64,000 bases of DNA from positions 1 to 64,000 of IMG/VR virus record IMGVR_UViG_3300006793_000018, one strand, 5' to 3'. Origin of the DNA: a virus. Under the pieces are notes generated by a model, which did not search any database, was not told where the DNA came from, and saw nothing but the letters and a program-made list of their open reading frames with translations. Shown here one piece after another: positions 2 through 60,752 of this stretch (positions are counted from its first letter, which is position 1; each line of letters opens with the position of its first letter). Made by a program: the position numbers and the translations under genes.

Positions 2-349
2 TTGATGAAAAGCGAAGAGTTTGACGACTCAAAGCCAAATCCGAATGTTGATCGGATTTTTGGTTTATCCAATCAAATGGTTCAAGCCGCATTGAATGGA
101 AGGGTTTTGCCCGATTACATCGAAATCCAAGAGGGCAACCCTCATTTAATGAATCCTCATTACGAAACAATGTCATACGATGAAGCAAAGGCAAAGGGTA
201 TGCTTGAGCCTTACCCCGACGACCACCCATTGTCTGGACATACAAACAATGTGAACATTTTGGACAAAAGAACTGGAAAAATAACCAACGTTGGGCTTTA
301 TCGCCTCTCAAAATACTTGAATGGAATCTGGAGGGAATATCAAGAATGA
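2..349 (+). CDS. Hypothetical protein, 5'-truncated; begins with the end of the shared leader (..LMK|S)
   Basis: Open from the window edge; nt 2-15 ttgatgaaaagcga are identical to the leader end of the ORF at 56922 (56952-56965); ATGA overlap with the next gene. Confidence 0.65.
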   Translation: MMKSEEFDDSKPNPNVDRIFGLSNQMVQAALNGRVLPDYIEIQEGNPHLMNPHYETMSYDEAKAKGMLEPYPDDHPLSGHTNNVNILDKRTGKITNVGLYRLSKYLNGIWREYQE

Positions 350-900
350 ATCCCTTTGACACCGCTTGGTCTTTGTTGAAAATGCCGTATCACGGCACAG
401 ATTTGTCTTCGGCAGAAAAGATCCTAAGTGGTGGAACAAAAGCCCAAAAAGATCCTCGCCCCTCTTTTAGACGCAACCCTGCTGCCTTTTTCATGGCGGT
501 GGATGAAAAAGAGGCAAGGTATCATGCGAGGAAACAGGCGACCCGTTCAGGAAGCCCACCAACCATACTACACATCACAGACGAGGGAGTTGCATCTGTT
601 CCTCACAGGCGAATGAATACAACTTCAAATCTTCCTGAAATAATAACTCACGGTCATCCACACCGCATTGATCCAAAGCACATTTCTATTCACGAACAAG
701 GACCAGAACCAAGTATGGATTTAGAAGAGATACGCTGGCCTATGACTGAAAAGGGGCGACAACAAGCAATGCTTGAGGTTTCCGAAATGGAGGATCTGGA
801 TGCTGCTGACGACGCTTTTTTTGAATGGCTTCAAGCGAAGGATAGGCGAAAGGGTCAATTAAATGAGTATCGCCAGCAACTTAGGGAGGCGGGATGGTGA
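346..900 (+). CDS. ADP-ribosyltransferase-like protein (HGT motif) with N-terminal leader MNPFDTAWSLLK
   Basis: YHGT..SAEKILSGG...FFMAVDEKEARYHA..G.PTILHI pattern typical of H-Y clade ART folds; paralog of 2044-2490. Confidence 0.6.
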   Translation: MNPFDTAWSLLKMPYHGTDLSSAEKILSGGTKAQKDPRPSFRRNPAAFFMAVDEKEARYHARKQATRSGSPPTILHITDEGVASVPHRRMNTTSNLPEIITHGHPHRIDPKHISIHEQGPEPSMDLEEIRWPMTEKGRQQAMLEVSEMEDLDAADDAFFEWLQAKDRRKGQLNEYRQQLREAGW

Positions 901-1766
901 TTAGGATTTTTGAAGTTGGGCCACGTGATGGGCTACAAAACCTGCCATTCGTCCCGTCCACCGAGGACAAGATCCATCTTATCCAGTTGCTGAGGGACGC
1001 TGGCCTCGATCACATCGAAATCGCATCCTTTGTCCATCCCAAGGCTGTCCCAAACATGGCTGATGCAGAGGAGATCTGCGATGCTTTCGATGATAAGGAA
1101 GGATTCTCCGTACTCGTTCCGAATCAACGTGGACTCGACCGAGCCAAGGATAGCGGAATGGATCGGTACAACATTTTCTTTTCACCTGTCGAATCGTTTA
1201 ATATCGCCAATTATGGATTAAAAATGAAACAGATCCTTGACAATTACGAGAAGTGCCTCCAGGGTATTCCAAGAGAATCTATTCGAGTGTACCTGTCCGA
1301 AGCCTTTGATGCAAATAATGAGGATCTCGCCATCGCTGTTCAACATGGTCTTCGATTTGGAAAGACCATCGTCCTTTGTGATACGAAAGGAACTGCTCAA
1401 CCTTATGACATTGCATCAGGGATTGATACTGCTCACGAATTCACCGTCGATTTGGCATTGCATCTCCATCATGGCAAGCATTTGATGAACAATGTTGCCA
1501 TAGGTTATGAAAATGGTGTTCGAGAATTCGATTCAAGCATTGGCGGATTGGGCGGATGTCCTTTCGTTGAAGGATCAGGAGCAAACCTTGCTACTGAGGA
1601 TCTCGTTAAGTGGTGCGAAAAGAGTGGCATTGACTGTGGATTGAAGTATTCCGATCTCAAGAAGGCTCGAAGATTGGCACACAAGATCAAGAATCCCACG
1701 TTGAGGGTTGCAGCCAAGAACAAGTTCAACGAAACCAAAAATCGAGTTAAGGCGGTGTGGAATTGA
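894..1766 (+). CDS. hmgL: Hydroxymethylglutaryl-CoA lyase (DRE-TIM metallolyase), auxiliary metabolic gene
   Basis: EVGPRDGLQN, SFVHPKAVPNMAD, LVPNQRG, HLH metal ligands, FDSSIGGLGGCPF..G..NLATEDL. Confidence 0.93.
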   Translation: MVIRIFEVGPRDGLQNLPFVPSTEDKIHLIQLLRDAGLDHIEIASFVHPKAVPNMADAEEICDAFDDKEGFSVLVPNQRGLDRAKDSGMDRYNIFFSPVESFNIANYGLKMKQILDNYEKCLQGIPRESIRVYLSEAFDANNEDLAIAVQHGLRFGKTIVLCDTKGTAQPYDIASGIDTAHEFTVDLALHLHHGKHLMNNVAIGYENGVREFDSSIGGLGGCPFVEGSGANLATEDLVKWCEKSGIDCGLKYSDLKKARRLAHKIKNPTLRVAAKNKFNETKNRVKAVWN

Positions 1767-2047
1767 CCGCCTTCGACACCGCTTGGGGCATGATAAAGGC
1801 AATCAATGGAAAGTCCATATCCTATTATGCGACCTTTGACAAAATAGCGGAGGTGGAAAAGGCGATGGGGTGGAAGCCTATGACTTGGCATACGATTTTA
1901 ACAAATGATGATGAGTTGTTGAGATACCTCGAAGAAGCATCTCAAACGGACAAATACGGACCTCAATACAAAGCCATGATGGGGGCAGTTTTGCATTCTT
2001 ACATGGACGACTACGACAAAGGTTCAATGATGGAGGGAATGGAATGA
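1763..2047 (+). CDS. Hypothetical protein with leader MTAFDTAWGMIK|A
   Basis: TTG start at 1763 overlapping the hmgL stop (TTGA), SD-like GGCGGTG upstream. Confidence 0.7.
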   Translation: MTAFDTAWGMIKAINGKSISYYATFDKIAEVEKAMGWKPMTWHTILTNDDELLRYLEEASQTDKYGPQYKAMMGAVLHSYMDDYDKGSMMEGME

Positions 2048-2490
2048 CCGCCTTCGATCTCGTTTGGAAAGCGTTCCGATACCCTGAGTTTTGGCACGGC
2101 ACGTCCGTCGCTAACGCAAAAAAGATCCTCGAAGAAGGATTTCACCCGTACTCATTCGGATCGCCGCATGAGGAAGATGCAATCACTTACGCGTATCAAA
2201 ACATGATTGATGAATCGGGTCCAGCAATGCTTGGATTTGATACGACTCCCGAAACTGAGATTCTCGATCCTTTAGACGAAGGTTATGATTTTGGTACAGA
2301 AGAATACGGACACATCATGATGAGAGATCGCCTTGATCCGAAGAACATCCGTCTTTTTGCTCAAGGCAACCCTTCAATGGATGAAGGAGAATGGTGGAAT
2401 TTTGTTCAAATGCTCCAACAAGCGGATCGGTTGAGTTATCGGTATCCTGATATGGATGAAGCATATGCCTCAAAAGAGGGGAGATCATGA
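2044..2490 (+). CDS. ADP-ribosyltransferase-like protein (HGT motif) with short leader MTAFDLVWK|A
   Basis: WHGTSVANAKKILEEG..F.S...DAITYA...GPAML; ATGA coupled; paralog of 346-900. Confidence 0.62.
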   Translation: MTAFDLVWKAFRYPEFWHGTSVANAKKILEEGFHPYSFGSPHEEDAITYAYQNMIDESGPAMLGFDTTPETEILDPLDEGYDFGTEEYGHIMMRDRLDPKNIRLFAQGNPSMDEGEWWNFVQMLQQADRLSYRYPDMDEAYASKEGRS

Positions 2491-3821
2491 CCGAGCCTTT
2501 ATTCGAGTTTGCTTTCTCGGACATGTTGTGGAAATCCATGACATCCGAAGACCTTGAGGAAATGAGTGCAAGATATAAAGCAAGGTTTCCTCCTGTCGAT
2601 ATGCGCCCAAATACTGGTTTGATCGAAGAGTATGCGGGAATAGACGGTTTTGGTCAAGGATTCAAATTAGCAGGAATCCCTACGCTTGCATCAACTGAGA
2701 TGTGGGATCTTGCAAATAAAGTGAGGAGGGACAATGATCCTGATCAGGAAATTATCTCTGCTTACATTGGCATGGAACAGGGGCAAACGCATCCAGATGA
2801 CTTAATTGAAAGATATGCAGACATCGCAGGAGAAAAGAAAATTCATTATCATCCATCACCGCCTTGCCAAAAATTGACTTCCGCAGGGAACTCAGGTTTA
2901 ACTGCAAGTGAAAGACTTGCACGTGCCAAAGAGGGATTGCCTCCTATCTTCAATTCGCTTTATACTGCACAGGAAATGAAGAAACACCCAGACATAAATT
3001 TGAATTCTTGGTCGATGGAACAAGCCAAAGAAGCAATTCCAGTTATGCTCGACCATCCTGAGTTGTTTGATGGTTTGGACAAAGACTTCAAGAAAATTGT
3101 GTGGGATATTCTTTCTGGAAAAGGCAAGGCAGGTACAGATCAAAATCCTCGGATGAATGCCATTGATTATGGCGCACCAACTACTCGAAACCGAATGTTC
3201 ATTGGTGAAGGATGGAATAAAAAACCAACACATTACAAATCAAAAGGTCGAAAGAATGCTCCAGCGGGGCGTTTGCCAAACCCAACCGTGTTGGATATTC
3301 TCCCGCATTTGGCAAGAGAGCATAGAGAGAATAAAGGCAGAGCAAATGCAAAAATGCAAGAATTGATGGACAAAGGCAATTTGACGCCCGAAGCAATAAG
3401 AATACTTGGAGATGGGCCACAGGTCGCCATTAGCGGAGCGATCAATCCTGGCAATCAAACATCTCAATGGCGAGATGGTGTGTCAAGAAATAAACAAAAA
3501 AGATCCTTTGCACACACATATGCTGCTGACCAACATCTTTCAGGATTGACGCATAACAGACCTGCTGTGATGTGGGATCGATTATTTACGCCAGAAGAAT
3601 TTTTGGCGATACAAGGTTTTGATCCAAATTATGATCTCTCCTCAATGATGCATCCAGATGGTCGAGAGATAACCCATGAAACATACACTACTGGGAAACG
3701 ACAAAAAGCAATTGATACTGCACTTGGAAATGTAGTAGTCCCGCCTGTTTCAAGAGCCATTGGGATGAGTGCGTTTGATGTCCCGCCCTCGGTACAAAGA
3801 ACCCTTTTAGAGCAGTATTGA
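2487..3821 (+). CDS. C5-cytosine DNA methyltransferase-like protein with leader
   Basis: Motif I YAGIDGFGQG..LAG, IV SPPCQ, VI variant MEQA, VIII AIDYGAPTTRNR, IX RLFTPEEFLAIQGF, X GNVVVPP. Confidence 0.85.
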   Translation: MTEPLFEFAFSDMLWKSMTSEDLEEMSARYKARFPPVDMRPNTGLIEEYAGIDGFGQGFKLAGIPTLASTEMWDLANKVRRDNDPDQEIISAYIGMEQGQTHPDDLIERYADIAGEKKIHYHPSPPCQKLTSAGNSGLTASERLARAKEGLPPIFNSLYTAQEMKKHPDINLNSWSMEQAKEAIPVMLDHPELFDGLDKDFKKIVWDILSGKGKAGTDQNPRMNAIDYGAPTTRNRMFIGEGWNKKPTHYKSKGRKNAPAGRLPNPTVLDILPHLAREHRENKGRANAKMQELMDKGNLTPEAIRILGDGPQVAISGAINPGNQTSQWRDGVSRNKQKRSFAHTYAADQHLSGLTHNRPAVMWDRLFTPEEFLAIQGFDPNYDLSSMMHPDGREITHETYTTGKRQKAIDTALGNVVVPPVSRAIGMSAFDVPPSVQRTLLEQY

Positions 3822-3860
3822 ATCAACATATTCAAATCCAAAGCCCATTTACCGATCTTT

Positions 3861-4244
3861 ATGGCGGATGCTACGTTCCAAAAAGCGTGGCTGATCATGA
3901 AGGGCAGGGATAATCCCTACAAAACCCGTTATCCTCACAAGCCAAGTGCAAATATGGAAAATGACATAGATGCGGCGGTTGATAATGTGATGTCTCAAAA
4001 AACCCCTCAAAAACCCCCAAAGGATTACAGCAAACCTGCTATCACGGGATTCAAGACATCTTCAAAAGATGCCCCAACTAAGGACGAGCCTCTCCCACCT
4101 TCAATTCAAAATCTTCTGGATCGTGCAAGAGGCGTTCCTCGAAAGAAAGAAGGCGAACAAAAACGCCCTAAGAAAAGCGAAACGAGTGAATTACCAACGC
4201 AAACATTGCAAAACCTTCACCGTAAAGTGAGGGGAGATGAATGA
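3861..4244 (+). CDS. Hypothetical K/P-rich protein with leader MADATFQKAWLIMK|G
   Basis: ORF with leader, ATGA coupled to the next gene. Confidence 0.7.
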   Translation: MADATFQKAWLIMKGRDNPYKTRYPHKPSANMENDIDAAVDNVMSQKTPQKPPKDYSKPAITGFKTSSKDAPTKDEPLPPSIQNLLDRARGVPRKKEGEQKRPKKSETSELPTQTLQNLHRKVRGDE

Positions 4245-5239
4245 CGGTTTTTGCTCGCGCATGGGATTTACTCGTCAAAGCCCTTGATCCAAATAATTTT
4301 AATTTGGATGATCTCATTGGTCGAGAGGCTTTTCCTAAGAATGACAGATCTGCATTGGACTACATCATGAGGGATGCGCGTGGCAAGCGTGAATTTGCAA
4401 AATTGCGTAGTAAAAAAATTGATGCAGATCTGGATATGACTGGCCGAGATATTGCTCCTTTTACAGCCTCAAAGTGGGGTGGCAAGGAAGCAGCAAGAGA
4501 TGCAATGGGTGGTGGATACTCAAGCCCTGGAAAAATGCTCAATCAAACCTATTCGCTTCCAACTCATATGTGTAAGGTCGGAGGTCGGCTTCGAGAGATT
4601 CCAGGATCGGTATGCGCTAATTGCTACGCTCACCCCAAAGAAGGTACATCCAGGGCATACACATACGCGATGAACAATGTGCAAAGACATCTTTTGAGAA
4701 ATTACAATGCTTTGAAGACCGATCCGCAACTTTGGGCATCGGCTCTTGCTTCCGAAGAATACGGGATCAATAGCGTTGCTCCACTGCCATTCCAAGATTT
4801 CCGCTGGCATGACTCAGGAGATGCCGATTCACCTGAACACTTGGCTTTGATGACGGCAATTGCTGATAAGAACCCCGATATTTTTAATTGGATTCCTACA
4901 AGGGAATGGGAATCAGTTAGGAGGCTCATGAATGCAAGAAGCACTTTACCTTCAAATGTGGCGATGAGGCTTTCAATACCTCACATCGATCAAACACTTG
5001 ACAACGATATTAACGAACAGAGAGGCGTTCCTTTGATGGAACAAAAATATCTCGATATGCTGGAGGAATTCCCTCAATTGTTGACGACAGGAGTTGTTTC
5101 CGATAAGAGTCTTTCTCGAAGACCAGAAGAGGTTTGCTTGACAACAGATAAAACAAACCCTGCAAAGACGTGCAAGGATGCCAGATGTGATGCTTGTTAT
5201 CGCCCCGATGTTCAAAACGTTGACTATGTAAATCATTGA
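4241..5239 (+). CDS. Phage gp88-like Cys-rich protein with leader MTVFARAWDLLVK|A
   Basis: GKM..TYSLP...C.VG..L..IPGSVC..CYA, FRWHDSGD, WIPTRE, C-terminal C..C.AC...V.NV.Y..H match the gp88 family pattern as I recall it. Confidence 0.75.
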   Translation: MTVFARAWDLLVKALDPNNFNLDDLIGREAFPKNDRSALDYIMRDARGKREFAKLRSKKIDADLDMTGRDIAPFTASKWGGKEAARDAMGGGYSSPGKMLNQTYSLPTHMCKVGGRLREIPGSVCANCYAHPKEGTSRAYTYAMNNVQRHLLRNYNALKTDPQLWASALASEEYGINSVAPLPFQDFRWHDSGDADSPEHLALMTAIADKNPDIFNWIPTREWESVRRLMNARSTLPSNVAMRLSIPHIDQTLDNDINEQRGVPLMEQKYLDMLEEFPQLLTTGVVSDKSLSRRPEEVCLTTDKTNPAKTCKDARCDACYRPDVQNVDYVNH

Positions 5240-5251: not shown

Positions 5252-6385
5252 ATGGCAGCATTCAATCAAGCCTTTGATCTCGTTTTGAAAAACGAGCGTG
5301 ATCGAGTTGATCTGGGAACAGTATCAACCGATGGCGTGATTGCCTATCCTTTGGAAAGCAAGAAAAACCGTGAATTAAGGGATTTGAAAGAAGGTGGTTT
5401 TACATGGGGTCGCCCTCATAATGTCGAAGCATTCCGCAATATCGACATCAATGTACCTCACATTGCGCCAGGTATGAACCACTATACTGGTCAAATTAGG
5501 CCAAACACTGGAGTTCTAAGCATTCTTCGGGGAGGGCAAGAAACAATTGGAATCGCAAATGCACTTCCTTTGAGGAATCCATTCTTCCGAGTCAATGAAA
5601 ATAAGCAAAGAGATGCTTGGCTTGGGAGAAGGGTAGCGGGTGGTGAAAGAGGAAATGCCAATCGAACGGCGCATATGTGGACAGCAGGGGAATTGACTCC
5701 CGATGAGTTGCAACAACTGTATTCTGGAGAACGAACTCCAATGGACATCTTGGGAATGAACGAGGAAATGAATCTCACTCGAAATCTCGCTGGAGATGCG
5801 GCAATGGGAATGGGTCAATGGGGCGAGGCTCCTCGATTTGGATACACCGTATATGACATCAAAGACTCAACATTGCCTCCAAAACAAAAGTGGAAGCCTC
5901 CACAACGTCTGCCTTTGAGACAGGACTTTGGAATGCCGTGGCGAGAACCAAGGAGAGGCGGTGTTTCAGGATCTGTTGATCCGATTTTGCAAATACCTCT
6001 TGGATGGAGTGATTTTGAGCAAAAACGCCCTGATCAACTTTATGTTGAATATACCGATCCTCAAAGCGGCTACACATATAATGGAGTACCAGTACCTGTA
6101 TCTTTGACGGCAGGAAATGATTTCTCAGTTAATGCGTTGTCGAGGGGTGTTGCAACTGGGACTCATGGATTGTATTTTGATCCGAATGATTTGACAAATG
6201 CTGGAATGGAATTGTGGGATACAGCACTAACTGGCGATATTATCCGACGATCAATGGATATTTTCAAAGCAGCATGGGACGAATCTCAAGGCGACTCAAA
6301 GGCCAAATTGAATGAGGAGATTGTTCAAATTTTGCGAGATTATTATCCATCAACCCTTGAAGAAATAATGGAGATGATTTCATGA
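5252..6385 (+). CDS. Hypothetical protein with leader MAAFNQAFDLVLK
   Basis: 377 aa ORF, SD GGAGG upstream. Confidence 0.75.
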   Translation: MAAFNQAFDLVLKNERDRVDLGTVSTDGVIAYPLESKKNRELRDLKEGGFTWGRPHNVEAFRNIDINVPHIAPGMNHYTGQIRPNTGVLSILRGGQETIGIANALPLRNPFFRVNENKQRDAWLGRRVAGGERGNANRTAHMWTAGELTPDELQQLYSGERTPMDILGMNEEMNLTRNLAGDAAMGMGQWGEAPRFGYTVYDIKDSTLPPKQKWKPPQRLPLRQDFGMPWREPRRGGVSGSVDPILQIPLGWSDFEQKRPDQLYVEYTDPQSGYTYNGVPVPVSLTAGNDFSVNALSRGVATGTHGLYFDPNDLTNAGMELWDTALTGDIIRRSMDIFKAAWDESQGDSKAKLNEEIVQILRDYYPSTLEEIMEMIS

Positions 6386-8120: not shown

Positions 8121-8127
8121 TCATATA
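8121..8127 (+). promoter_or_regulatory. Putative archaeal TATA box (TCATATA)
   Basis: 30 nt upstream of ATG 8151; same heptamer at 28886-28892 before the protease gene. Confidence 0.5.
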
Positions 8128-8150
8128 GGTGTGAGGCATGAGAGGGAGTT

Positions 8151-8297
8151 ATGGGAAGACACGTGTCTGTCGTGATGAGGGAAGATCTTTTTATTAAAAT
8201 GGAACAAGAAAGAGGACGAGAATCAAAGTCATCTTTCATGAATCATGTTCTTGCATTTTACTTCAAAAACAAGACAACTGGAGATGACCATCAATGA
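8151..8297 (+). CDS. Ribbon-helix-helix (CopG/Arc-like) DNA-binding protein, 48 aa, absent from the ORF track
   Basis: Manual translation MGRHVSVVMREDLFIKMEQERGRESKSSFMNHVLAFYFKNKTTGDDHQ: strand, helix, G-x-x-S-K-S helix; ATGA overlap with 8294. Confidence 0.75.
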   Translation: MGRHVSVVMREDLFIKMEQERGRESKSSFMNHVLAFYFKNKTTGDDHQ

Positions 8298-8725
8298 CTA
8301 AAACCGATGCACAAACATATTACCCCGCCCCTTATGTCCAAGACGACTCAAATCGAATTGACGTGAACTTGATCGCAATGCTACTATGGCAAGCCCTTCT
8401 CACGGGAACCTCAGTTGCAGTATCCCACATGGGATGGTATCTTCCCGACGCAGGAGCCGCAGAAATGGGACTTCAATACGGTTTGATCTGCTTTGGCTTC
8501 CTCTGCACAGCAATGGTTCTTTTCCATGTAGGTGGAGTGCGAGATTCTCTTGCTATGCGAGCCGAGTTCGCTAAAGAGAACCAAGTGGACAAGTGGATGC
8601 GAGGTCAACAGCGGCTACATCAGCGTCGGGCCAATAAGAGAAATTATTGGCAGCAACAATCGGCACAATCCCCATCCGGCGTTCAGCAATTCGGAATACC
8701 TCAAAAGAAAGACGACGAAAACTGA
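8294..8725 (+). CDS. Membrane protein (2 predicted TM helices, Q/R-rich tail)
   Basis: Hydrophobic LIAMLLWQALLTGTSVAV and GLICFGFLCTAMVLFHV. Confidence 0.75.
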   Translation: MTKTDAQTYYPAPYVQDDSNRIDVNLIAMLLWQALLTGTSVAVSHMGWYLPDAGAAEMGLQYGLICFGFLCTAMVLFHVGGVRDSLAMRAEFAKENQVDKWMRGQQRLHQRRANKRNYWQQQSAQSPSGVQQFGIPQKKDDEN

Positions 8726-8736
8726 GGGGTATCCTT

Positions 8737-8961
8737 ATGTGGCCTTTCACAACTAACCAAGAACGTCAAACGGAGGCCATGTCCCAAATCTTGGCCGAAA
8801 ATGCGTATGAACGAAAGATGGAGAGGGTGGCAGGATGGGTAAGGACAGTTGTCGCCTTGATCGGAGGGGTGGCCCTAACATTCGGAATTTTGTTTGCATT
8901 GGAGATCTTTGGAATTTCTCCATCGGACGTGGTTGGCTTCTTCAAAGGCTTAAGCGGATAG
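8737..8961 (+). CDS. Small membrane protein (1 TM plus amphipathic end)
   Basis: ATG 8737 after GAGGGG; VVALIGGVALTFGILFALEIFGI. Confidence 0.7.
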   Translation: MWPFTTNQERQTEAMSQILAENAYERKMERVAGWVRTVVALIGGVALTFGILFALEIFGISPSDVVGFFKGLSG

Positions 8962-8968
8962 GTGGATT

Positions 8969-9703
8969 TTGATGTCAGCCCTTATCGCAGGGCATATGTT
9001 GATGGCATCAACCACTGCGCTTTATTCGTTGTATCGTGTATTGAAACCTTATCGCGTTGGGATATACGGTCCATCCTTGGTTGGCAAGACTACTCTCGAT
9101 CAGTATTTGACAGTCCCAGGTGATATTGAACCTATACCTTTGAATTTTCGCACAGCCCATCCTAAAGCGAAGACGCTAACTGGTTTCCAAGAGCCAAATG
9201 CTACCCGCAAGAAACTTCGATATAAACAAGAAAAAACTCCAGTTCAAACGGCAGATCTGGCGGGAGATCATATGTTTCGCAATTTGTGGGTCGATGATAT
9301 GTTTGGGCGAAAGGTTGAGTTGATCATTTACATGGTCGATCACAGATCATTAACATCTCCTCAGTTCGCAGCAGATGCTTCTGCGGGGTTGTCTTATTTG
9401 GTGGACAATATCATCAAACAAGATCTCAGCAAGAACATCTCTCGCAAGTCAAAGCGCAATTCAAAGAAATACACTCCTCGATTGTTTTGTTTGATGATCA
9501 ATAAGATCGATTTATGGTGGGATTCAAACGCTCAACAACTTTGGGAATACGGATTACAGAAGGAGCATCCTATTGTTGCCCCGTACAGAGATTCGTTGAA
9601 ACGTCTAAGGCGAGCCGGAATTAGGGCAGAAATCAAGGCAATATCATCTCAGCACGGCGTAAATGTCGAAAAATCATTGACTGAATTGCTTCAATCCATG
9701 TAG
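8969..9703 (+). CDS. Small Ras-superfamily GTPase, Arf/Sar1-like, with N-terminal hydrophobic helix
   Basis: G1 GPSLVGKTT, G3 DLAG followed by FRNLW, LIIYMVD strand, G4 NKID, G5 ISS.HG.NV. Confidence 0.85.
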   Translation: MMSALIAGHMLMASTTALYSLYRVLKPYRVGIYGPSLVGKTTLDQYLTVPGDIEPIPLNFRTAHPKAKTLTGFQEPNATRKKLRYKQEKTPVQTADLAGDHMFRNLWVDDMFGRKVELIIYMVDHRSLTSPQFAADASAGLSYLVDNIIKQDLSKNISRKSKRNSKKYTPRLFCLMINKIDLWWDSNAQQLWEYGLQKEHPIVAPYRDSLKRLRRAGIRAEIKAISSQHGVNVEKSLTELLQSM

Positions 9704-9713
9704 CGATGCCTTT

Positions 9714-10697: not shown

Positions 10698-10700
10698 TTT

Positions 10701-11578: not shown

Positions 11579-11591
11579 CCCCCCAAGTGAT

Positions 11592-17269: not shown

Positions 17270-18685
17270 ATGACCGATTCATTTGAGGATGCATGGGTCT
17301 CTGTTGAGAAGGCAGCATTTGGAAGAGGCCGTGATCGAAGGCGTCAAGAAGCCTATGCTCGCGCTCCAGAGATGATGAGGCGGTTCAAGGCCATGCGAGA
17401 TATGCAACAAGGCGTAAATCCAAACAGGCCAACTCCTCGACGAAGACCAACTCGAAGATCTGCATCATCCGCCCCTCCCGCTGCTCCACCTCGAAGAAGG
17501 CCGACTCGACGTCGAGCAACTCGAAGATCTGCACAATCCTCCCCTCCCCCATCTCCAACTGAAACCCCTCCAACTACTACATTGACACCACGGCTTCCAA
17601 CGCTCATTCCAATAGAAGAGGAAGAAATCTCTCCTCAAATACCAGACAGTCTCCAATACCCTGAATCACCAACCGATTTGGATGTTCTTGATCGGCAAGA
17701 AAATGATGCCGATTTTGGCCTATACAACGAGCCACACGTTGATATTGCCTACAAAAATGGGGAAGTCAAACAAATGCCCCTTGAAGATTTCAGATGGGCA
17801 GACATGACCGATATTCGAGATGTGGAAACTATTTTTCAATCCGATGAAGACGGAGAGATGAAACTAATTTTTGAGGCTCCAAAAGAGAAAGAAATTGAAA
17901 CCCCCGCATCCGAAGTCATCGAACCAACCGAGGGCGTTGTTGAAGCCGTAAATGAAATGAAACCTTTGCAATCCGATATGGCAGGTCTTCCCAAGAAACC
18001 AAACAAGAATCTTGCAAATGTGATCAAACCATTGATGACGGAAGGCATTGCCAATGCAATCGGACCTGCTGAGAACCGTGATAAAGTGATCGCACGTATG
18101 CAACGAAAGAAAGCCAAGCCAACTGCTTCAAAACAACCAACGCCGCCTTCCGATGCTGAGGAAAAAAAACCTGTTGAAGGCAAAACAGATCCTGTGGCGC
18201 AAGCGGCAAAGAAAAGATTGAAACCAAAAAACAGAGGAAAGACGGGAATGACAATGGCTGATTTGAATCCGAAGGAAGAAACCATCGATCCATCAAAAAA
18301 GGTTGAAGAATCAATCAAGCCACTCACCTCTCAACCAAACACAAGTACCGAAGTTCCTCGCTTAGGATCTCGCCCAAGTCGTGAAGACGTCTTGGAAGTC
18401 ATTGATTTAGTAGGGCTTGGAAATAAAGAAGCATATACTCAACTGTACGGTGCTTTGGGAGATTTGGAAGATATGGGGTCGGATCTTTTACCACAAGCAG
18501 CGGATATTATCGAGGAATACAAGGCAATGGAAAAACACAGGCGAAAGAAACGTCGAGACACGCAATCCAGTGAACGAAAAAACGCCAAAAATCTTTCCAA
18601 ACCTTTGACTGACGGAAAAGAAAAGGGAAAATTGACCTCTGATGACTTGGCTGCTCGACTTCTCAACCGTGGAAAAAAGGATTGA
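17270..18685 (+). CDS. Leader-bearing (MTDSFEDAWVSVEK|A) protein with Arg-rich repeats
   Basis: 471 aa; RRPTRR repeats, acidic and K-rich regions; SD GGTGA. Confidence 0.72.
   Translation: MTDSFEDAWVSVEKAAFGRGRDRRRQEAYARAPEMMRRFKAMRDMQQGVNPNRPTPRRRPTRRSASSAPPAAPPRRRPTRRRATRRSAQSSPPPSPTETPPTTTLTPRLPTLIPIEEEEISPQIPDSLQYPESPTDLDVLDRQENDADFGLYNEPHVDIAYKNGEVKQMPLEDFRWADMTDIRDVETIFQSDEDGEMKLIFEAPKEKEIETPASEVIEPTEGVVEAVNEMKPLQSDMAGLPKKPNKNLANVIKPLMTEGIANAIGPAENRDKVIARMQRKKAKPTASKQPTPPSDAEEKKPVEGKTDPVAQAAKKRLKPKNRGKTGMTMADLNPKEETIDPSKKVEESIKPLTSQPNTSTEVPRLGSRPSREDVLEVIDLVGLGNKEAYTQLYGALGDLEDMGSDLLPQAADIIEEYKAMEKHRRKKRRDTQSSERKNAKNLSKPLTDGKEKGKLTSDDLAARLLNRGKKD
17427..17550 (+). repeat. Imperfect 69-bp tandem duplication encoding RR(P/A)TRRSA..PP
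   Basis: caactcgaagatctgca at 17448-17464 and 17517-17533. Confidence 0.7.
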
Positions 18686-28914: not shown

Positions 28915-30303
28915 TTGATGACGGCAGCAAACCTCTCAGTATCCTCCGCAACATGGTCTGCGGATGGCTCTGATTTTTTGCTAAAATCTGCTGCATCAAA
29001 CGGCGATCTATTCGTCGCAGGATATGCATCGGTCGATATGGTCGATAAGCAGGGAGATCGTATCCCAGTCCCTGCGCTAAAGAAGGCATTCAATCAATTC
29101 ATGGGCAACAAGGCATTCCGCAATGTCCAGTTGGCACACTCTGGCATCCAAGTTGGAGAAGTTGTTTCCGATTACAAAGATACAGAAGGCCGACTTTGGA
29201 AATCCGAAGTCGATGATCATGGATTGTTCGTTGTTTGCAAGATCCGCAACGACATTCAAAAGGCACGTGAAGTGCAGAAGCAAATCCGCAATGGAGAACT
29301 ACGGGCGTTCTCAATTGGCGGTCAGGCACTATTTCGTGTGTCGAAAACAACCCCCGAACTCGGTACTCATCGTGAGATTACCGACCTTGAACTCCATGAG
29401 ATCACACTCTGCAAGAAGGGAATCAACCCTGAAGCAGCGTACACGATCCTAAAAATGGACGGAGATGACAACATGAGCAATACAGAAGTGTTAAACGAAA
29501 TTAAGGCAGGACTTTCCGAAGTTCTCAAAGAATTGAATGAAGGAAAGTCGGATGCAAAGACTGACGACAAATACATGAAAAATGTCGATTGTGACGATGA
29601 GGGCAACCCTATCGGACAAAAAGGCGATGACAAGATGAAGAAAGCCCAACAGGACGACGCTCTTGCATACATCGATACCCTCGAAAAGTTCGCTCACCAA
29701 TCTGGTGTTGATCTCGACGGACTCCGTGATCACTTTGGTTTGGAGAAGGCTTACCTTCCAGAACAAGGATCTGGCGGATACTCTCACCGAGGACAAGGCG
29801 ATGAAGTTGGATCTGGCGAAGATGCAACCGAACCATCGTACCCATCTCTCCCAAGTCCTGGCGGCAACCAATATGTGATCAAGGGGCCAAGTGTTCCTAA
29901 CATGAACATGGGCGCACCATCGGGCAACCAAAACGTCATCAAGTCCCTCACCCCAGAAACTCTGGAAAAGGGATACCGAACCTACGCTGCCCTTCGTGAC
30001 GAAGAAGCCGTGAAGGGTCTTGTCGAAAAGGAATGGCAGGAACGCTACAACGCAGAAACCGCACAGGCTCTCGAAGTTCGCAAAGCCAACGATGTCGGCG
30101 CACAAATCCACGCTCTCCGTGAAGAGATCTCGATGCTCAAGTCAGAGAATGTCGATCTCCAAAAGAGCGCAACCCCTGTGCCATCCGCACCAACCACTTC
30201 CATCCGAGTACCAACCCACGATGAATTTTCCCAAATGGGATCTGACCTCGAAGGCTGGCGAGCCGCAGAAGCACTTGCTATGCGAGCATTGCGAGGGGAA
30301 TAA
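28915..30303 (+). CDS. Prohead protease fused to scaffold region
   Basis: VAGYASVDMVDKQGD, QLAH..IQVG, GLFV, RAFSIGG, LHEITLC..G.NP; acidic coiled-coil C-terminal half; directly upstream of MCP. Confidence 0.9.
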   Translation: MMTAANLSVSSATWSADGSDFLLKSAASNGDLFVAGYASVDMVDKQGDRIPVPALKKAFNQFMGNKAFRNVQLAHSGIQVGEVVSDYKDTEGRLWKSEVDDHGLFVVCKIRNDIQKAREVQKQIRNGELRAFSIGGQALFRVSKTTPELGTHREITDLELHEITLCKKGINPEAAYTILKMDGDDNMSNTEVLNEIKAGLSEVLKELNEGKSDAKTDDKYMKNVDCDDEGNPIGQKGDDKMKKAQQDDALAYIDTLEKFAHQSGVDLDGLRDHFGLEKAYLPEQGSGGYSHRGQGDEVGSGEDATEPSYPSLPSPGGNQYVIKGPSVPNMNMGAPSGNQNVIKSLTPETLEKGYRTYAALRDEEAVKGLVEKEWQERYNAETAQALEVRKANDVGAQIHALREEISMLKSENVDLQKSATPVPSAPTTSIRVPTHDEFSQMGSDLEGWRAAEALAMRALRGE

Positions 30304-30324: not shown

Positions 30325-31479
30325 ATGACGCAAGGATACATCCGAACAATCGAAGACATGGAACGCCTTTACTACGGTGCTGGCGCAGGATCGAACGCAT
30401 GGGCATACAGTGGAACTGACCTACTCAAGGCAGACTCACCTTTGATGTCCTCAACCGCTGGAACTTACAACGCCATCTTTGGCCGTAAGGTTTGGTCGCA
30501 ACTCAACCAAGAATTCAACGCTTTCTCAATTCTTCCTAAGAAGCCTTGGGAAAAGAGTGGATGGCGTGTCGTGACCGGCAAGCCTGACGAAGCCAGTGGA
30601 CTTCCTGAAAACGGAACCCTCCCTGACTCCACCAAGCCAACCTTCCACGAAGTCAGCACCAAGCCAAAGACCATTGCAAGCAAGTTCGACTTGAGCGAAA
30701 CCGCAATGTTCCTTGCAGACAAGGACGATGGACTTGGCGATGCACGTGCTGTGATCAAGATGGAAATGTCGAAGTCTCACGCTGAGTCGATCAACAAGAT
30801 GCTCCTTCGAGATGTCAACGTCGTCGCTGGAAACAACTTTGAATCCATTGACCGTGCAATCTCCTCCTCCTTCGTTGAGAAGTCTGGAATGTCCGACATC
30901 AGTTCCGCAGCAGTTCACAACCAATACAGTCTCACCCGTGACTCCTCTGGTGCTACTTCCCGTGAATGGTACGACGCCAACGTCGATGCTGGTGCAAACG
31001 GTGCTTCCAACGAACGCCCTCTCACCCTCAACATCTTGGATGGAATGTTCCGAGCAGTTTGGGAACGGGGAGGTCAGCCAAAGGTTATCCTCACTGGATA
31101 CGACACTGTTGAGAAGATCCAACAACTCCTTCAACCACAACAACGGTTCACTGAGATGAAGCGCGTCACGCCTTCCGTCAACGGTGTTCAAGGTGTTCCT
31201 GGTATGGATGCTGGATTCGTCGTTGCAACATACAACGGCGTCCCGATCATTCCTTCCAAGGATGTTCAAGATGATGGTCTTTCTCGACTATACTTCATCG
31301 ACACTGACTACACCTACTTCTGCACGGCTAAACCAACTCTTTACCACGAATCTGGTATCGAAACTGGCGATCCATTCGGTATCAACCGTCTTGGACAAGT
31401 CGGCCTATTCCACACAATGGGCGAACTCTGGCAACTCTTCTATGGCGCACACGGCAAGATCCGAGATCTTAGTGCCTGA
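30325..31479 (+). CDS. Major capsid protein (HK97 fold)
   Basis: Position after protease; LPENGTLPD, E-loop/P-domain pattern, YNGVPIIPSKD, LYFIDT; strong highly-expressed codon bias; putative propeptide ending DLLK|A. Confidence 0.9.
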   Translation: MTQGYIRTIEDMERLYYGAGAGSNAWAYSGTDLLKADSPLMSSTAGTYNAIFGRKVWSQLNQEFNAFSILPKKPWEKSGWRVVTGKPDEASGLPENGTLPDSTKPTFHEVSTKPKTIASKFDLSETAMFLADKDDGLGDARAVIKMEMSKSHAESINKMLLRDVNVVAGNNFESIDRAISSSFVEKSGMSDISSAAVHNQYSLTRDSSGATSREWYDANVDAGANGASNERPLTLNILDGMFRAVWERGGQPKVILTGYDTVEKIQQLLQPQQRFTEMKRVTPSVNGVQGVPGMDAGFVVATYNGVPIIPSKDVQDDGLSRLYFIDTDYTYFCTAKPTLYHESGIETGDPFGINRLGQVGLFHTMGELWQLFYGAHGKIRDLSA

Positions 31480-56580: not shown

Positions 56581-56922
56581 ATGCCTGTTCTCGACCCCCT
56601 CAAAGCCGCTTTGACCGATCACCTTCAAACGCTGATCAAGAATTGCACATTGGGTTCGTCTGGATCCAAAGCATCAAGCAGAGACAGTGGGGCAGGAAAT
56701 ACTCAACTGAATAAAAATGTTGAGATTCAAAGAATCGATGATCGAACCATCTCAATCAATGCTTTTTTTGATTCTCAGCAAGCATCGGCTCAACCAATCC
56801 AAGAAGTTGTTTTGCACGGAACAAATGCCCTCGACGCACCTGCATTCCGAACGACGTTTGTCCCGATCCAAAAAAATACAACGAACGAGGTTCGGATTGA
56901 AATTTTGATGGAGGTTCGATAA
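56581..56922 (+). CDS. Small tail/baseplate protein
   Basis: IQEVVL..FRTTFVPIQK..EVRIE pattern of small baseplate/fibre-attachment proteins. Confidence 0.55.
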   Translation: MPVLDPLKAALTDHLQTLIKNCTLGSSGSKASSRDSGAGNTQLNKNVEIQRIDDRTISINAFFDSQQASAQPIQEVVLHGTNALDAPAFRTTFVPIQKNTTNEVRIEILMEVR

Positions 56923-57140
56923 TGACTGAAACATTTGAGATGGCATGGGAATTGATGAAAAGCGACGAGAAGGGCGACAACGCCCCAACCAACCCAGGTC
57001 TCTGGTCGCAAGCCAAATCAAAGGCTCGATCCAAGTTCAAGGTGTACCCTTCGGCCTACGCCAACGGTTGGGCTTCTAAGTGGTACAAGTCCAAAGGCGG
57101 CGGCTGGAAGAAAAAGTCAAAGGGAGGCAAAAAGAAATGA
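56922..57140 (+). CDS. Leader-bearing (MTETFEMAWELMK|S) basic protein with YPSAYA motif
   Basis: PTNPGLW..AK..A..KF.VYPSAYAN.W..K.YK..GGGW, a motif I recall as widespread in marine phages. Confidence 0.75.
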   Translation: MTETFEMAWELMKSDEKGDNAPTNPGLWSQAKSKARSKFKVYPSAYANGWASKWYKSKGGGWKKKSKGGKKK

Positions 57141-57346
57141 CTCACGAAGCACTTGAGAAAGCATGGGAATTGATGAAAGAACGATACACAGGAATGGATG
57201 GCAACCGAACACGTGAGAGGCGTGGCAAATGCTCCGAATGTGGTGCAAAACAGACTTGGGATCCATGTGGTCTTTTGGTACATAGCCCAAGACACTCTGA
57301 TCATGCCTATGCGTTTGAATGCCCCAATTTCCAATACACGGAATGA
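57137..57346 (+). CDS. Leader-bearing (MTHEALEKAWELMK) Zn-ribbon protein
   Basis: ATGA start 57137; CSECG...C...ECP. Confidence 0.7.
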   Translation: MTHEALEKAWELMKERYTGMDGNRTRERRGKCSECGAKQTWDPCGLLVHSPRHSDHAYAFECPNFQYTE

Positions 57347-57352
57347 TTCACC

Positions 57353-57973: not shown

Positions 57974-57974
57974 T

Positions 57975-59111: not shown

Positions 59112-59120
59112 GGCGGTAAA

Positions 59121-59327
59121 ATGTCAAGAGCATATCGAGACAAGGTTAGCCAAACGTGCGAAAAATGCAACGCTGATGTTCTCGCTGTACGCATAAACGG
59201 TTTCTATGCGGGAAGTAGGGACAGAATGTTCTTGTGGGAATGCCCTTTGTGTGAGCATGTATGGAAGAAGCCTGTGCCGCTGATTCAACCTATCCCTTCG
59301 ATCAATGGGGGTTTATTGCATGACTGA
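59121..59327 (+). CDS. Zn-ribbon protein
   Basis: CEKC...WECPLCEH. Confidence 0.7.
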   Translation: MSRAYRDKVSQTCEKCNADVLAVRINGFYAGSRDRMFLWECPLCEHVWKKPVPLIQPIPSINGGLLHD

Positions 59328-59565
59328 GGCATTTGACCAAGCATGGGACTCCATCGTCAAAGGACGCTTTCGAGGATACACCCGTGCAAACATCGGAGAT
59401 CGTCCAGTACGAGCAGGAAAAGCCAAGGCATGGAGTCAAAGTCGAAAGGTCAAACGTGGCCGTACTGCAAGGCGGTACAAAAGAAACAAATCCAGAGGAA
59501 CTGTGCGACCTGCCATGCGTAGGCAGTTAGGCGCAGGTGGCAAAAGAGCCTCAACAAAGAGATGA
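59320..59565 (+). CDS. Leader-bearing (MTEAFDQAWDSIVK|G) Arg/Lys-rich protamine-like protein
   Basis: ATG 59320; after the leader the protein is almost devoid of acidic residues. Confidence 0.7.
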   Translation: MTEAFDQAWDSIVKGRFRGYTRANIGDRPVRAGKAKAWSQSRKVKRGRTARRYKRNKSRGTVRPAMRRQLGAGGKRASTKR

Positions 59566-60752
59566 TTGAGATGAACGATGATGTCTTTGAGGAAGTATTT
59601 GAGGCACTTCTCAAAGCAGCAGATCGGCTCAATTTTGCTGAACTCTTCGCAGGTTTAGGCGGTTCCTCCCTGATTGAGTTTTTGGGCGAAGGAGGATGGG
59701 GAGGAGCAGCAAAGAAACGAGGACACAATGTCCAAGCATACGAACTGGATCCATCATTGAAACAAGGAGATCCAAATTATCACATTCGAGATGTCATGGA
59801 CATGAATGCAGAAGAGATCATGGATGACTTCGATTGGGAAGGCATCGACGCTGGTGTCGCTTCCTTTCCTTGCAAAGCATTCACTACTGCATCAGGAAAC
59901 AAAGGATGGATTTGGGATAAAAGGTGGATGGATCAGTATTCCGATTTGACAGGGAAGGATTGGGATGAAACCAAATCAACTGGTTGGCATTGGGATCGGG
60001 TCAAACCCCACTACAACAAGAACAGAGGCCAAGGATCCAAATTGGGATTCTCAGGCAACGTTGCAGCCTCAAGCCCAGACTCGTATGAGCGTGATGAATT
60101 AGGACGATATTTGGATATGCAAGGCAAACCAATGATGACTCGAAGAGGAGGAAAACCTGTACCGATGGGCGACGAACAGATCCAGTCGGCCATTGATCGA
60201 CGCGAATTGGGAATGAGTTTATTGACTCAATCTCGCAAATTGTTTGATGACCTAAAAAGTTTGAATCCTGATATGTATCAAGTGTATGAGAACCCTGCGA
60301 CGGGCAGGGCAAGATACACGAACGAATTATCGGATCTCCCAATGAAAACCATCGATGCAGCAGCATATCGAGATCCCGCGCACTCTAACCTCTTTGGACT
60401 TCCTCGAAACGAAAATCTGTTTGAGATGACCCCAGGTTCGCTTCCTGCTTTGAAACCAACGGATCTGTTTGGACATTTCCCCGACACCTTTGTTCCACGA
60501 CCACGATTGCCTCGAAGTCTCAGTGGTAAGTTCTATGAAAAGGCTCCACGTGGATCGAAGTCAGGTATTCAAGGCGTAGGAGATTTGCCAGCAAATACCC
60601 TCTTCCCTGGAAGCCCAACCATTGACAAATTCCATTTGCGATCAGTCATTCCCTATTGGCTCGGTCATGACTTTATTCAATCAGTTGAAGAAGCCCAAGG
60701 CGTCAAACCTCAATCTCCAGTAATTTCCGACGTCAAATTGCCAATGCTTTGA
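59562..60752 (+). CDS. Second C5-cytosine DNA methyltransferase-like protein with leader (VFEEVFEALLK|A)
   Basis: ELFAGLGG, AYELDP, ASFPCKAFT, YENP, KPT, RSVIP; short viral C5-MTase type with long insertions. Confidence 0.75.
   Translation: MIEMNDDVFEEVFEALLKAADRLNFAELFAGLGGSSLIEFLGEGGWGGAAKKRGHNVQAYELDPSLKQGDPNYHIRDVMDMNAEEIMDDFDWEGIDAGVASFPCKAFTTASGNKGWIWDKRWMDQYSDLTGKDWDETKSTGWHWDRVKPHYNKNRGQGSKLGFSGNVAASSPDSYERDELGRYLDMQGKPMMTRRGGKPVPMGDEQIQSAIDRRELGMSLLTQSRKLFDDLKSLNPDMYQVYENPATGRARYTNELSDLPMKTIDAAAYRDPAHSNLFGLPRNENLFEMTPGSLPALKPTDLFGHFPDTFVPRPRLPRSLSGKFYEKAPRGSKSGIQGVGDLPANTLFPGSPTIDKFHLRSVIPYWLGHDFIQSVEEAQGVKPQSPVISDVKLPML

What the first reader, a model, noticed from the sequence alone, without database searches (positions are those of the whole stretch)
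2..60752. Shared N-terminal F-x-x-A-W-x-x-L-x-K leader on at least 12 unrelated proteins: candidate capsid-targeting cargo-loading system
Seen: otherwise unrelated ORFs start with the same 9-16 aa amphipathic tag. These are 346 MNPFDTAWSLLK, 1763 MTAFDTAWGMIK|A, 2044 MTAFDLVWK|A, 2487 MTEPLFEFAFSDMLWK|S, 3861 MADATFQKAWLIMK|G, 4241 MTVFARAWDLLVK|A, 5252 MAAFNQAFDLVLK, 17270 MTDSFEDAWVSVEK|A, 56922 MTETFEMAWELMK|S, 57137 MTHEALEKAWELMK, 59320 MTEAFDQAWDSIVK|G and 59562 ..DVFEEVFEALLK|A, plus the truncated ..LMK|S at nt 2. In several, the recognisable domain begins right after the Lys (ART HGT strand, MTase motif I, YPSAYA module). Tail, neck and replication proteins and HMG-CoA lyase lack the tag. 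Known: T4 internal proteins use a short N-terminal capsid-targeting sequence removed by the prohead protease. Inference: this is a portable address label that docks on the scaffold or procapsid, is clipped after Lys, and lets the virus package and inject an interchangeable set of effectors. I am not aware of this being described for archaeal viruses.
Basis: partly seen in the sequence, partly recalled or inferred. Interest (0 to 1): 0.93.

Follow-up and report, generated by a model that had tools for sequence, protein, structure and literature searches.

The report
Shared address tag on magrovirus proteins
About fourteen otherwise unrelated late proteins of this ocean archaeal virus carry the same short helix ending in lysine, most likely a removable label that loads them into the virus head, although neither loading nor cutting has been measured.

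Summary
All 12 listed N-termini and the truncated one are at the stated coordinates. I add one internal copy at 13652-13681. The strict motif hits 11 places in six frames, 10 of them at the start of long + strand ORFs. Shuffled proteomes give 0.02 tagged genes against 9 observed. Conservation is at the peptide level.

The window is part of a 90.3 kb magrovirus of Poseidoniales archaea. In 110 related loci the tag heads 462 distinct proteins in about 200 unrelated families. In six whole genomes, 90 of 91 tags lie on the structural-gene strand. I found no N-terminal copy in host genomes.

The tag ends in hydrophobic-hydrophobic-Lys. The same pattern borders the virus's own capsid protein and S78 head protease, also in a sister group whose tag is otherwise different. 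The S78 founder HK97 cuts after Lys. Pro never follows the Lys (0 of 462).

Best reading, about 50%: a T4-like capsid-targeting propeptide. Packaging and cutting are inferred, not shown.

This scan has already noted the same tag in at least 39 other genomes.

The parts
2..10 (+). end of a tag (..LMK) on the gene cut by the contig start (ORF 2-349)
   Evidence: translation
346..381 (+). tag MNPFDTAWSLLK on the 184-aa ART-fold (KptA/Tpt1-like) protein 346-900
   Evidence: The AF2 model has helix 3-11 then beta1 at 15-19. The Foldseek top hits are KptA/Tpt1.
1763..1798 (+). tag (M)TAFDTAWGMIK, TTG start, on the 94-aa protein 1763-2047
2044..2070 (+). shortened tag MTAFDLVWK on the ART-like paralogue 2044-2490
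2487..2534 (+). tag variant MTEPLFEFAFSDMLWK on the C5 DNA methylase 2487-3821
   Evidence: Pfam PF00145 E 3.2e-9
3861..3902 (+). tag MADATFQKAWLIMK on the 127-aa protein 3861-4244
4241..4279 (+). tag MTVFARAWDLLVK on the GP88-family protein 4241-5239
   Evidence: Pfam PF17338 E 6.4e-21
5252..5290 (+). tag MAAFNQAFDLVLK on the 377-aa protein 5252-6385
   Evidence: It is conserved in G002, G004 and L002.
17270..17311 (+). tag MTDSFEDAWVSVEK on the basic, low-complexity 471-aa protein 17270-18685, just upstream of the large terminase
28915..30303 (+). S78 prohead protease fused to a scaffold. It carries invariant Lys borders: FLLK|S (codon 28984-28986), TILK|M (29452-29454) and three further hydrophobic-x-K|small sites in the scaffold half. 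It is the presumed enzyme that clips the tags.
   Evidence: Pfam PF04586, PHROGs head maturation protease, 31-sequence alignment A4
30325..31479 (+). HK97-fold major capsid protein with invariant DLLK35|AD near the N-terminus (Lys codon 30427-30429)
   Evidence: PHROG and Pfam SU10_MCP, alignment A3, HVTV-1 alignment
56922..56960 (+). tag MTETFEMAWELMK on the 72-aa basic DUF5872-like protein 56922-57140
57137..57178 (+). tag MTHEALEKAWELMK on the 69-aa Cys-rich protein 57137-57346. It shares an exact 18-nt stretch with the 56922 tag.
59320..59361 (+). tag MTEAFDQAWDSIVK on the 81-aa very basic protein 59320-59565
   Evidence: In relatives the same module is fused in frame behind another domain.
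59562..59615 (+). looser tag ..DVFEEVFEALLK on the 396-aa protein 59562-60752, with a FAGLGG motif 12 residues after the Lys
   Evidence: There was no Pfam hit at E 0.01.

Best explanation
The tag is a portable propeptide with two halves. The first half is a short amphipathic helix (F-D-x-A-W in this group) that docks the protein onto a virus-encoded component of the assembling head, either the scaffold core or the inner shell. The second half (hydrophobic-hydrophobic-Lys, then a small residue or Met, never Pro) is a cut site for the virus's own S78 prohead protease. That protease would trim the tag inside the procapsid at the same time as it trims the capsid protein, itself and the scaffold. 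The freed cargo would stay in the head and enter the host with the DNA. The cargo comprises ART-fold enzymes, DNA methylases, ParB-like and nuclease domains, small basic DNA-binding proteins and many unknown proteins.

Shown here: the motif exists, it is biased to the N-terminus, it is selected at the peptide level, it is restricted to the structural strand and to the virus, its cargo is diverse, and it shares the hydrophobic-hydrophobic-Lys signature with the head-protein borders.

Inferred, not shown: docking, cutting, retention in the head and injection.
For: 1. Enrichment and position. Ten of 11 six-frame hits lie at ORF starts. Nine genes match against 0.02 in shuffles. Phe sits 3 residues after Met in 344 of 462 tags, and in 158 of the 276 not drawn by the search pattern. 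In an exhaustive profile search of 1.84 billion proteins, 43 of the 49 significant hits start at residue 1.

2. Portability. 462 distinct tagged proteins fall into 200 clusters once the tag is removed, 124 of them singletons. Only 9 of 150 cluster representatives have a Pfam family.

3. Timing and location. In G000, G001, G002 and G004, 55 of 56 tags are on the strand of the structural genes. In the sister-group genomes G355 and G357 it is 35 of 35.

4. Virus-specific. In 596 billion bases of cellular genomes the DNA pattern occurs singly at about chance level. The exception is 7 copies on one 106-kb viral contig of a Poseidoniales single-cell genome. In 301 Poseidoniales genomes, 11 hits lie on that contig and 6 elsewhere, and 0 of those 6 are N-terminal.

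5. Cut-site signature. There are invariant Lys sites with a hydrophobic P3 and a small P1' at the MCP N-terminus (DLLK|AD), at both ends of the protease domain (F[IL]LK|S and [IL]LK|M) and at three scaffold positions, in 26 and 31 sequences respectively. The same hydrophobic-hydrophobic-Lys borders occur in a sister group with MCP only 36-37% identical, whose tag is M-[STN]-W-x-[DN]-I-L-K and whose protease ends in FDILK. HVTV-1 keeps K|AD at both aligned sites. HK97, the type S78 system, cuts its MCP at K103/S104 (PMC10275583, passage read). Pro follows the tag Lys in 0 of 462 cases, where about 31 are expected from a 6.8% background, yet Pro is the commonest residue one position later (128 of 399).

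6. The F/A/W half is not needed for such borders. The MCP of subclade ii and of the sister group lacks Trp there. That half therefore has a separate job, and it differs between the two virus groups, as expected for a virus-encoded receptor.

7. Cargo resembles known injected effectors. It includes an ART fold, C5 and D12 methylases, ParB and a GH-E nuclease. ARTs, DNA methylases and ParB-like DNases are section headings in the paper on injected polyvalent phage proteins (PMC5512222, abstract and outline read). Several tagged proteins are small and very basic. The review read describes CTS-like sequences on basic proteins of T4 relatives.

8. Precedent. A 10-residue T4 CTS and a 30-residue P1 DarB signal each suffice for encapsidation (PMC9026906 and PMC9024508, passages read).
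Against: There is no measurement of packaging or cleavage for any magrovirus; none is cultured.

The hydrophobic-x-Lys|small motif is short. It also occurs inside folded parts, for example the invariant VIKM in the MCP and several conserved Lys inside the protease fold, so the match could be chance.

About 30 genuine copies are internal or C-terminal. Some proteins carry 2-3 copies on disordered linkers. That fits a general docking motif better than a strictly N-terminal propeptide.

P1' is Glu in 57 of 462 tags.

The two subclades of this group show no co-variation between the tag P1' and the protease sites.

Ten to 24 tagged genes per genome is a very large cargo set. Methylases do not obviously need to be injected.
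Confidence: 0.5

Rival explanations
1. The helix is a general docking motif that recruits many late viral proteins to one hub that is not the capsid. The hub could be a virus-encoded late protein, such as the conserved membrane and small-GTPase operon at 8.1-11.8 kb or the 1141-aa protein at 25434-28859. It could also be a host machine. On this reading the Lys at the end is a helix cap and not a cut site.
For: The tag works in any position. There are internal and C-terminal copies and 2-3 copies per protein on disordered linkers, as is usual for short linear motifs. The hydrophobic-x-Lys|small match is low in information. No subclade co-variation was found.
Against: The position 3 residues after Met is strongly preferred. 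Pro is excluded right after Lys (0 of 462) but favoured one residue later. The same hydrophobic-hydrophobic-Lys ending is kept in a sister group although the rest of the tag changed. No host protein starts with the tag. The upstream half differs by virus group although both groups are Poseidoniales viruses, which argues against a shared host receptor. That both are magrovirus groups rests and on earlier notes, and was only partly tested here.
Confidence: 0.2
2. The tag is only a protease-removable pro-peptide. It would keep enzymes inactive, or mark them for timed processing or degradation late in infection, without retention in the head or injection.
For: The tag abuts the first strand of the fold in the ART-like family (K-M-P-Y-H-G-T; helix 3-11, strand 15-19), so it could mask or regulate the domain. 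The cut-site signature applies as in the main reading.
Against: From general knowledge of HK97-type systems, S78 prohead proteases are active inside procapsids, so cutting implies entry into the head. A conserved F/A/W face is not needed for the virus's own cut sites, so it points to a docking step.
Confidence: 0.1
3. The tag is an amphipathic membrane-binding helix that places late proteins at the cell membrane.
For: It is a short helix with Phe, Trp, Leu and Val on one face and Lys at its end.
Against: The helix is only 9-10 residues long. Its net charge is neutral to negative, with Asp or Glu at position 2 in 355 of 399 tags. Copies occur in highly acidic disordered proteins. Cargo includes DNA methylases and DNA-binding proteins.
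Confidence: 0.04
4. The shared sequence is a nucleotide-level feature: a translation-start signal or a recombination linker for swapping gene cassettes.
For: Two neighbouring tags share an exact 18-nt stretch (56943 and 57161). Tagged genes lie in fast-changing arrays.
Against: Synonymous codons vary freely at Phe and Ala, and the hydrophobic positions vary in residue but not in kind. Conservation reaches 12 codons into the gene and also occurs inside genes.
Confidence: 0.03

Closest known systems
Capsid targeting sequence (CTS) of phage T4 internal proteins IPI-III and Alt
   Same: It is a short N-terminal peptide shared by otherwise dissimilar, fast-evolving proteins. Part of it targets the protein to the prohead core and part specifies cutting by the prohead protease. 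The cargo includes an ART and basic proteins and is delivered with the DNA (PMC9026906, passages read).
   Different: There is no sequence relationship. According to the papers read, T4 uses the gp21 protease with sites ending in Glu, whereas here an S78 (HK97-type) protease and Lys are involved. Here there are 10-24 tagged genes per genome and about 200 families, internal and multi-copy forms exist, and the host is an archaeon. Nothing has been shown experimentally.
N-terminal packaging signal of phage P1 DarB (Dar antirestriction system)
   Same: An N-terminal stretch of 30 residues is sufficient to send a heterologous protein into the capsid. The cargo counters host restriction (PMC9024508, abstract and passages read).
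   Different: The P1 signal is known on one protein, not on a family of unrelated ones. It depends on a stepwise set of Dar proteins, and no shared consensus is described in the passages read.
HK97 gp4 / Peptidase_S78 prohead protease system
   Same: The window's protease matches PF04586. HK97 cuts its MCP at K103/S104 in an unstructured stretch (PMC10275583), and the borders here are Lys|Ser/Ala/Gly.
   Different: From recall, HK97 is not known to load unrelated cargo by a common tag; only the protease itself is targeted. Here the scaffold is fused to the protease and is not a delta domain of the MCP.
Polyvalent injected proteins of phages and conjugative elements (Iyer et al. 2017)
   Same: The domain repertoire overlaps (ARTs, DNA methylases, ParB-like DNases, nucleases), with predicted delivery alongside the DNA at the start of infection (PMC5512222, abstract and outline read).
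   Different: There the domains are strung in one giant polypeptide tied to virion domains. Here each domain is a separate small gene with its own tag. The untagged 1141-aa protein before the protease may be the local counterpart, but this was not tested.
Encapsulin cargo-loading peptides
   Same: A short peptide docks diverse cargo onto the inside of an HK97-fold shell (recalled, not tested).
   Different: As recalled, they are usually C-terminal, are not cut off, and have a different consensus. Encapsulins carry no DNA and inject nothing.

Membership tests
T4-type capsid targeting sequence system (functional class) | One short terminal peptide shared by otherwise unrelated proteins of one virus | tested here: met
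   There are 12 plus 1 truncated plus 1 internal copy in the window, and 462 proteins in 200 clusters in relatives.
T4-type capsid targeting sequence system (functional class) | The peptide ends at a prohead-protease cut site and is removed | tested here: inconclusive
   The hydrophobic-hydrophobic-Lys|small ending is shared with invariant borders of the MCP and protease-scaffold in two groups. Pro at P1' occurs in 0 of 462 tags. HK97 gives a K|S precedent. No cleavage data exist.
T4-type capsid targeting sequence system (functional class) | The peptide is sufficient to bring a foreign protein into the capsid | not testable with these tools
   This needs expression and purification of particles.
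T4-type capsid targeting sequence system (homology) | A T4-type gp21 prohead protease as the processing enzyme | tested here: not met
   The protease here matches Peptidase_S78 (PF04586), the HK97 type. It is therefore an analogue and not a member by descent.
Sec/Tat signal peptide | An uninterrupted hydrophobic core of roughly 7-15 residues after a basic N-region (feature recalled) | tested here: not met
   The tag alternates polar and hydrophobic residues, has Asp or Glu at its second position, and is 9-10 residues long.
Host-type N-terminal signal copied by the virus (as in Prp/L27-type extensions, recalled) | Host proteins carry the same N-terminal peptide | tested here: not met
   Six hits in 301 Poseidoniales genomes lie outside the viral contig, and 0 of those 6 are N-terminal. 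Hits in 596 billion bases of cellular contigs are single and at chance level. Only the consensus DNA patterns were searched.
Peptidase_S78 substrates | An S78 prohead protease is encoded next to the MCP | tested here: met
   PF04586 E 1.2e-9 and PHROG head maturation protease. It is conserved in 30 of 30 records searched.
ADP-ribosyltransferase fold (cargo 346-900) | Structural similarity to solved ART-fold proteins | tested here: inconclusive
   The AF2 model has pLDDT 78. The Foldseek top 7 hits are KptA/Tpt1, followed by exotoxin A, pertussis S1 and DarT, but the best E is only 3.4e-3 and TM is 0.34-0.40. There is no Pfam hit.

The most novel reading that the evidence does not exclude
Magroviruses, among the most abundant archaeal viruses of the surface ocean, run a plug-and-play protein delivery system. 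Any protein given an 8-12 residue tag is taken into the procapsid, released there by the HK97-type protease cutting after Lys, and injected into Poseidoniales cells. Hundreds of unrelated effector families ride on it. Multi-tag disordered proteins form an internal core. The docking half of the tag co-evolves with each virus group.
Probability: 0.4. Interest if true: 0.85.

Novelty: new variant of a known kind. Interest (0 to 1): 0.72.

Why it matters
If the reading holds, this would be the first capsid-targeting and effector-delivery code known for an archaeal virus. It would also mark, at a glance, which of the many unknown magrovirus genes are virion cargo, pointing to the proteins that act first in infection of one of the ocean's commonest archaea.

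The tag is short, sharply defined and paired with a simple HK97-type protease. It could therefore be tested with recombinant MCP, protease-scaffold and tag-GFP without culturing host or virus.

I found no description in print. The three magrovirus papers read contain no occurrence of 'N-terminal'. Text searches for the tag strings and for capsid targeting in archaeal tailed viruses found nothing relevant.

Tried and rejected
Complex prediction. The protease-scaffold (A4), the MCP (A3) and the first 40 residues of a tagged protein (A2) were handed to complex prediction. It returned 'no answer' with score 0.00, and the controls were not run. This is no evidence either way.

MCP fold. The AF2 model from 26 sequences had mean pLDDT 38 and was unusable, so I could not check where the HK97 fold begins relative to K35.

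Tag profile against the 5.8-billion set. With lengths 'longer', nothing reached E 0.01. The exhaustive search answered that question instead.

Search for distant MCP relatives. The search for related loci and the search for homologous proteins returned only MCPs at least 59% identical. The sister group was reached by a DNA pattern instead.

Co-variation of tag P1' with the protease-domain border between the two subclades: none was seen.

HVTV-1. My ORF caller failed on its GC-rich DNA. A frame-independent regex scan and the annotated late-gene starts showed no tag. The last 2.3 kb of HVTV-1 was not read.

The HVTV-1 virion paper (PMC3592136), which may give the mature MCP N-terminus, is not held.

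Two scripts printed nothing because of a wrong regex. This was corrected.

Rejected readings, each with its reason given under rivals: signal peptide, membrane helix, host-signal mimicry, and a nucleotide-level signal.

Full report
WHAT THE WINDOW IS. The window is the first 64 kb of a single 90.3-kb virus contig. Genes on the + strand from 1 to 60752 form the late arm. This arm holds a large terminase (18691), a portal (21336), an S78 prohead protease fused to a scaffold (28915), an HK97-fold MCP (30325) and long tail genes. The minus strand from 60.7 to 90.3 kb holds the replication genes. The nearest named MCPs are those of the haloarchaeal siphoviruses HVTV-1, HCTV-5 and HCTV-1, at 33-34% identity. 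That is the relation published for magroviruses (PMC5434244, passages read). A 106-kb contig of a Poseidoniales single-cell genome carries an 80% identical MCP and many copies of the tag. The virus is therefore a magrovirus of Marine Group II archaea.

THE OBSERVATION. A strict regex finds 11 matches in all six frames, and 10 sit within 8 residues of the start of long + strand ORFs. Of 57 + strand genes, 9 match in their first 30 residues and none internally. In 2000 shuffles the mean was 0.02. Phe uses TTT 6 times and TTC 5 times, Ala uses four codons, and the hydrophobic positions change residue but not kind. Selection therefore acts on the peptide. I add one internal copy at 13652-13681 in the conserved 503-aa protein 12974-14485. 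It is followed by a very basic stretch and is conserved in relatives.

HOW WIDE IT IS. Two close relatives in IMG/VR carry 8-12 tagged genes in the syntenic array. A DNA pattern for M-T-A-F-D-x-A-W found 105 stretches in IMG/VR, with up to 7 per locus. In the 110 loci then held (1.04 Mb) the regex gave 547 hits, and 500 of them had a start codon just upstream and at least 40 residues downstream. After removal of duplicates there are 462 proteins.

The consensus is M-T-A-F-D-x-A-W-x-[LVI]-[VL]-K-[A/M/E/G/S]-[P/D]. With the tag stripped, the proteins form 200 BLAST clusters, 124 of them singletons. Only 9 of 150 cluster representatives have a Pfam family: GP88, DUF6321, D12 and C5 methylases, a zinc finger, DUF7249, DUF5872, HTH_38 and GH-E nuclease. 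PHROGs adds ParB.

Of 50 tag-bearing records searched, 37 hold an MCP 60-93% identical to the window's. The remaining 13 are mostly fragments. Three of them (the records of L035, L065 and L081) are chance DNA matches with no tag at all. At least 592 IMG/VR stretches encode this MCP clade. An exhaustive profile search of 1.84 billion representative proteins gave 49 hits at E <= 0.001, and 43 of them start at residue 1.

WHERE IT IS NOT. HVTV-1 has no such tag (its last 2.3 kb was not read). In 596 billion bases of cellular genomes the pattern occurs as single hits at about the chance rate, apart from the viral contig above. In 301 Poseidoniales genomes a broader pattern hit that contig 11 times and other places 6 times, with 2 hits for the reversed control. 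None of the 6 is N-terminal, and two are an internal helix of one conserved enzyme family; I read the surrounding residues as CTP synthase by eye, with no family search.

In four whole genomes of this group, 55 of 56 tags are on the strand of the structural genes.

IS IT A CUT SITE? In 31 protease-scaffold sequences, five Lys outside the folded protease domain are invariant although their surroundings are not. They are K23 ([IL][LIM]K|[SGA]), K179 ([IL]LK|[MEQ]D), K277, K342 and K416. Each has a hydrophobic P3, and four of the five have Ser, Ala or Gly at P1'. In 26 MCPs, L33-L34-K35 and D37 are invariant. The tag ends in the same way.

HVTV-1 keeps Lys|Ala-Asp at the aligned MCP site and at the aligned end of the protease domain. 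HK97, the type member of family S78, cuts its MCP at K103/S104 (PMC10275583). Pro never follows the tag Lys (0 of 462, about 31 expected), yet Pro is the commonest residue one place further on. That is what a scissile bond would require, although a helix cap could also explain it.

A SISTER GROUP. I followed a lead from earlier notes of this scan and searched IMG/VR for M-x-W-x-D-I-L-K. I found arrays of up to 19 genes per 14 kb starting M-[STN]-W-x-[DN]-I-L-K. Four complete 92-97 kb genomes of this kind have an MCP 35-37% and a portal 39-42% identical to the window's. Their 24 and 11 tags are all on the structural strand. Their MCPs keep ..LLK at residues 28-31. Their proteases begin x-I-L-K|[GS] and end FDILK|Q or FEIVK|E.

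The hydrophobic-hydrophobic-Lys ending is thus common to the tags and the head-protein borders in both groups, while the upstream half of the tag differs by group. The virus's own borders do not need the F/A/W face, so that half must do something else. I take that to be docking on a virus-encoded receptor.

WHAT DOES NOT FIT. About 30 copies are internal or C-terminal. Some proteins carry two or three copies on acidic, Pro-rich linkers. This is typical of a general docking motif. Under the packaging model such proteins would be cut into pieces, like core proteins. The cut-site motif is short and also occurs in folded regions. I saw no co-variation of P1' between the two subclades.

CARGO. The family of 346-900 models with pLDDT 78. 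The tag forms a separate helix (residues 3-11) directly before the first strand. The best structural matches are KptA/Tpt1 and other ART-fold proteins, but weakly. All 18 sequence relatives found in 5.8 billion proteins are unnamed metagenomic proteins, and each of the 12 whose sequences I read carries the tag or a degenerate copy of it. ARTs, DNA methylases and ParB-like DNases are typical of phage proteins predicted to be injected with the DNA (PMC5512222, abstract and outline). Several tagged proteins are small and very basic.

COMPARISON AND VERDICT. The system works most like the T4 capsid targeting sequence and the P1 DarB signal. It is not related to them: the protease family and the cut residue differ, and the cargo set is far larger. 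I put the capsid-targeting propeptide reading at about 0.5 and a non-capsid docking motif at 0.2. A pro-peptide without delivery gets 0.1, and membrane or nucleotide-level readings get below 0.05 each.

I found no description in the held literature; supplements were closed. The same tag has already been noted by this scan in at least 39 other genomes, with the same reading.

Noticed in passing
window 56943-56960 and 57161-57178: The tags of two neighbouring genes share an exact 18-nt stretch encoding A-W-E-L-M-K. This suggests recent duplication or gene conversion of the tag.
   Followed up: partly
window 894-1766: An HMG-CoA-lyase-like gene (PF00682, E 4e-24) without a tag sits inside the tagged array. 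It is conserved at the same place in relatives L001 and L002.
   Followed up: partly
L156/L174 (Poseidoniales single-cell genome AG-422-I20, NODE_2, 106 kb): A whole magrovirus-like contig with an 80% identical MCP and at least 11 tags lies in a single-cell genome of the presumed host. This is a direct virus-host link.
   Followed up: partly
P0019, P0021, P0025, P0035 (metagenomic proteins): These proteins of 325-585 aa carry two or three tag copies separated by acidic, Pro-rich, probably disordered linkers.
   Followed up: partly
window 8121-11813: An operon of small membrane proteins and a P-loop GTPase-like protein (8969-9703, GPSLVGK) lies between the tagged array and the packaging genes. 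It is conserved in relatives and had no Pfam hit at E 0.01.
   Followed up: no
window 25434-28859: An untagged 1141-aa protein lies directly upstream of the protease, with no Pfam or PHROG hit. HVTV-1 has a 1313-aa gene, annotated as zeta toxin, at a corresponding place three genes upstream of its protease. This may be a large head-associated injected protein.
   Followed up: no
window 12974-14485 and 17270-18685: Two conserved proteins upstream of the terminase combine a tag copy with long, very basic, low-complexity regions. They are candidates for DNA-binding internal head proteins.
   Followed up: partly
G355 (IMG/VR 3300025151_000019, 95.6 kb): A sister-group genome with direct terminal repeats is rated 100% complete and has 24 genes starting M-x-W-x-x-I-L-K, 19 of them within 14 kb.
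   Followed up: partly
window 30751-30762 (MCP residues 143-146): A conserved V-I-K-M inside the MCP matches the proposed cut-site pattern. If the protease is Lys-specific, this site must be protected by the fold.
   Followed up: no
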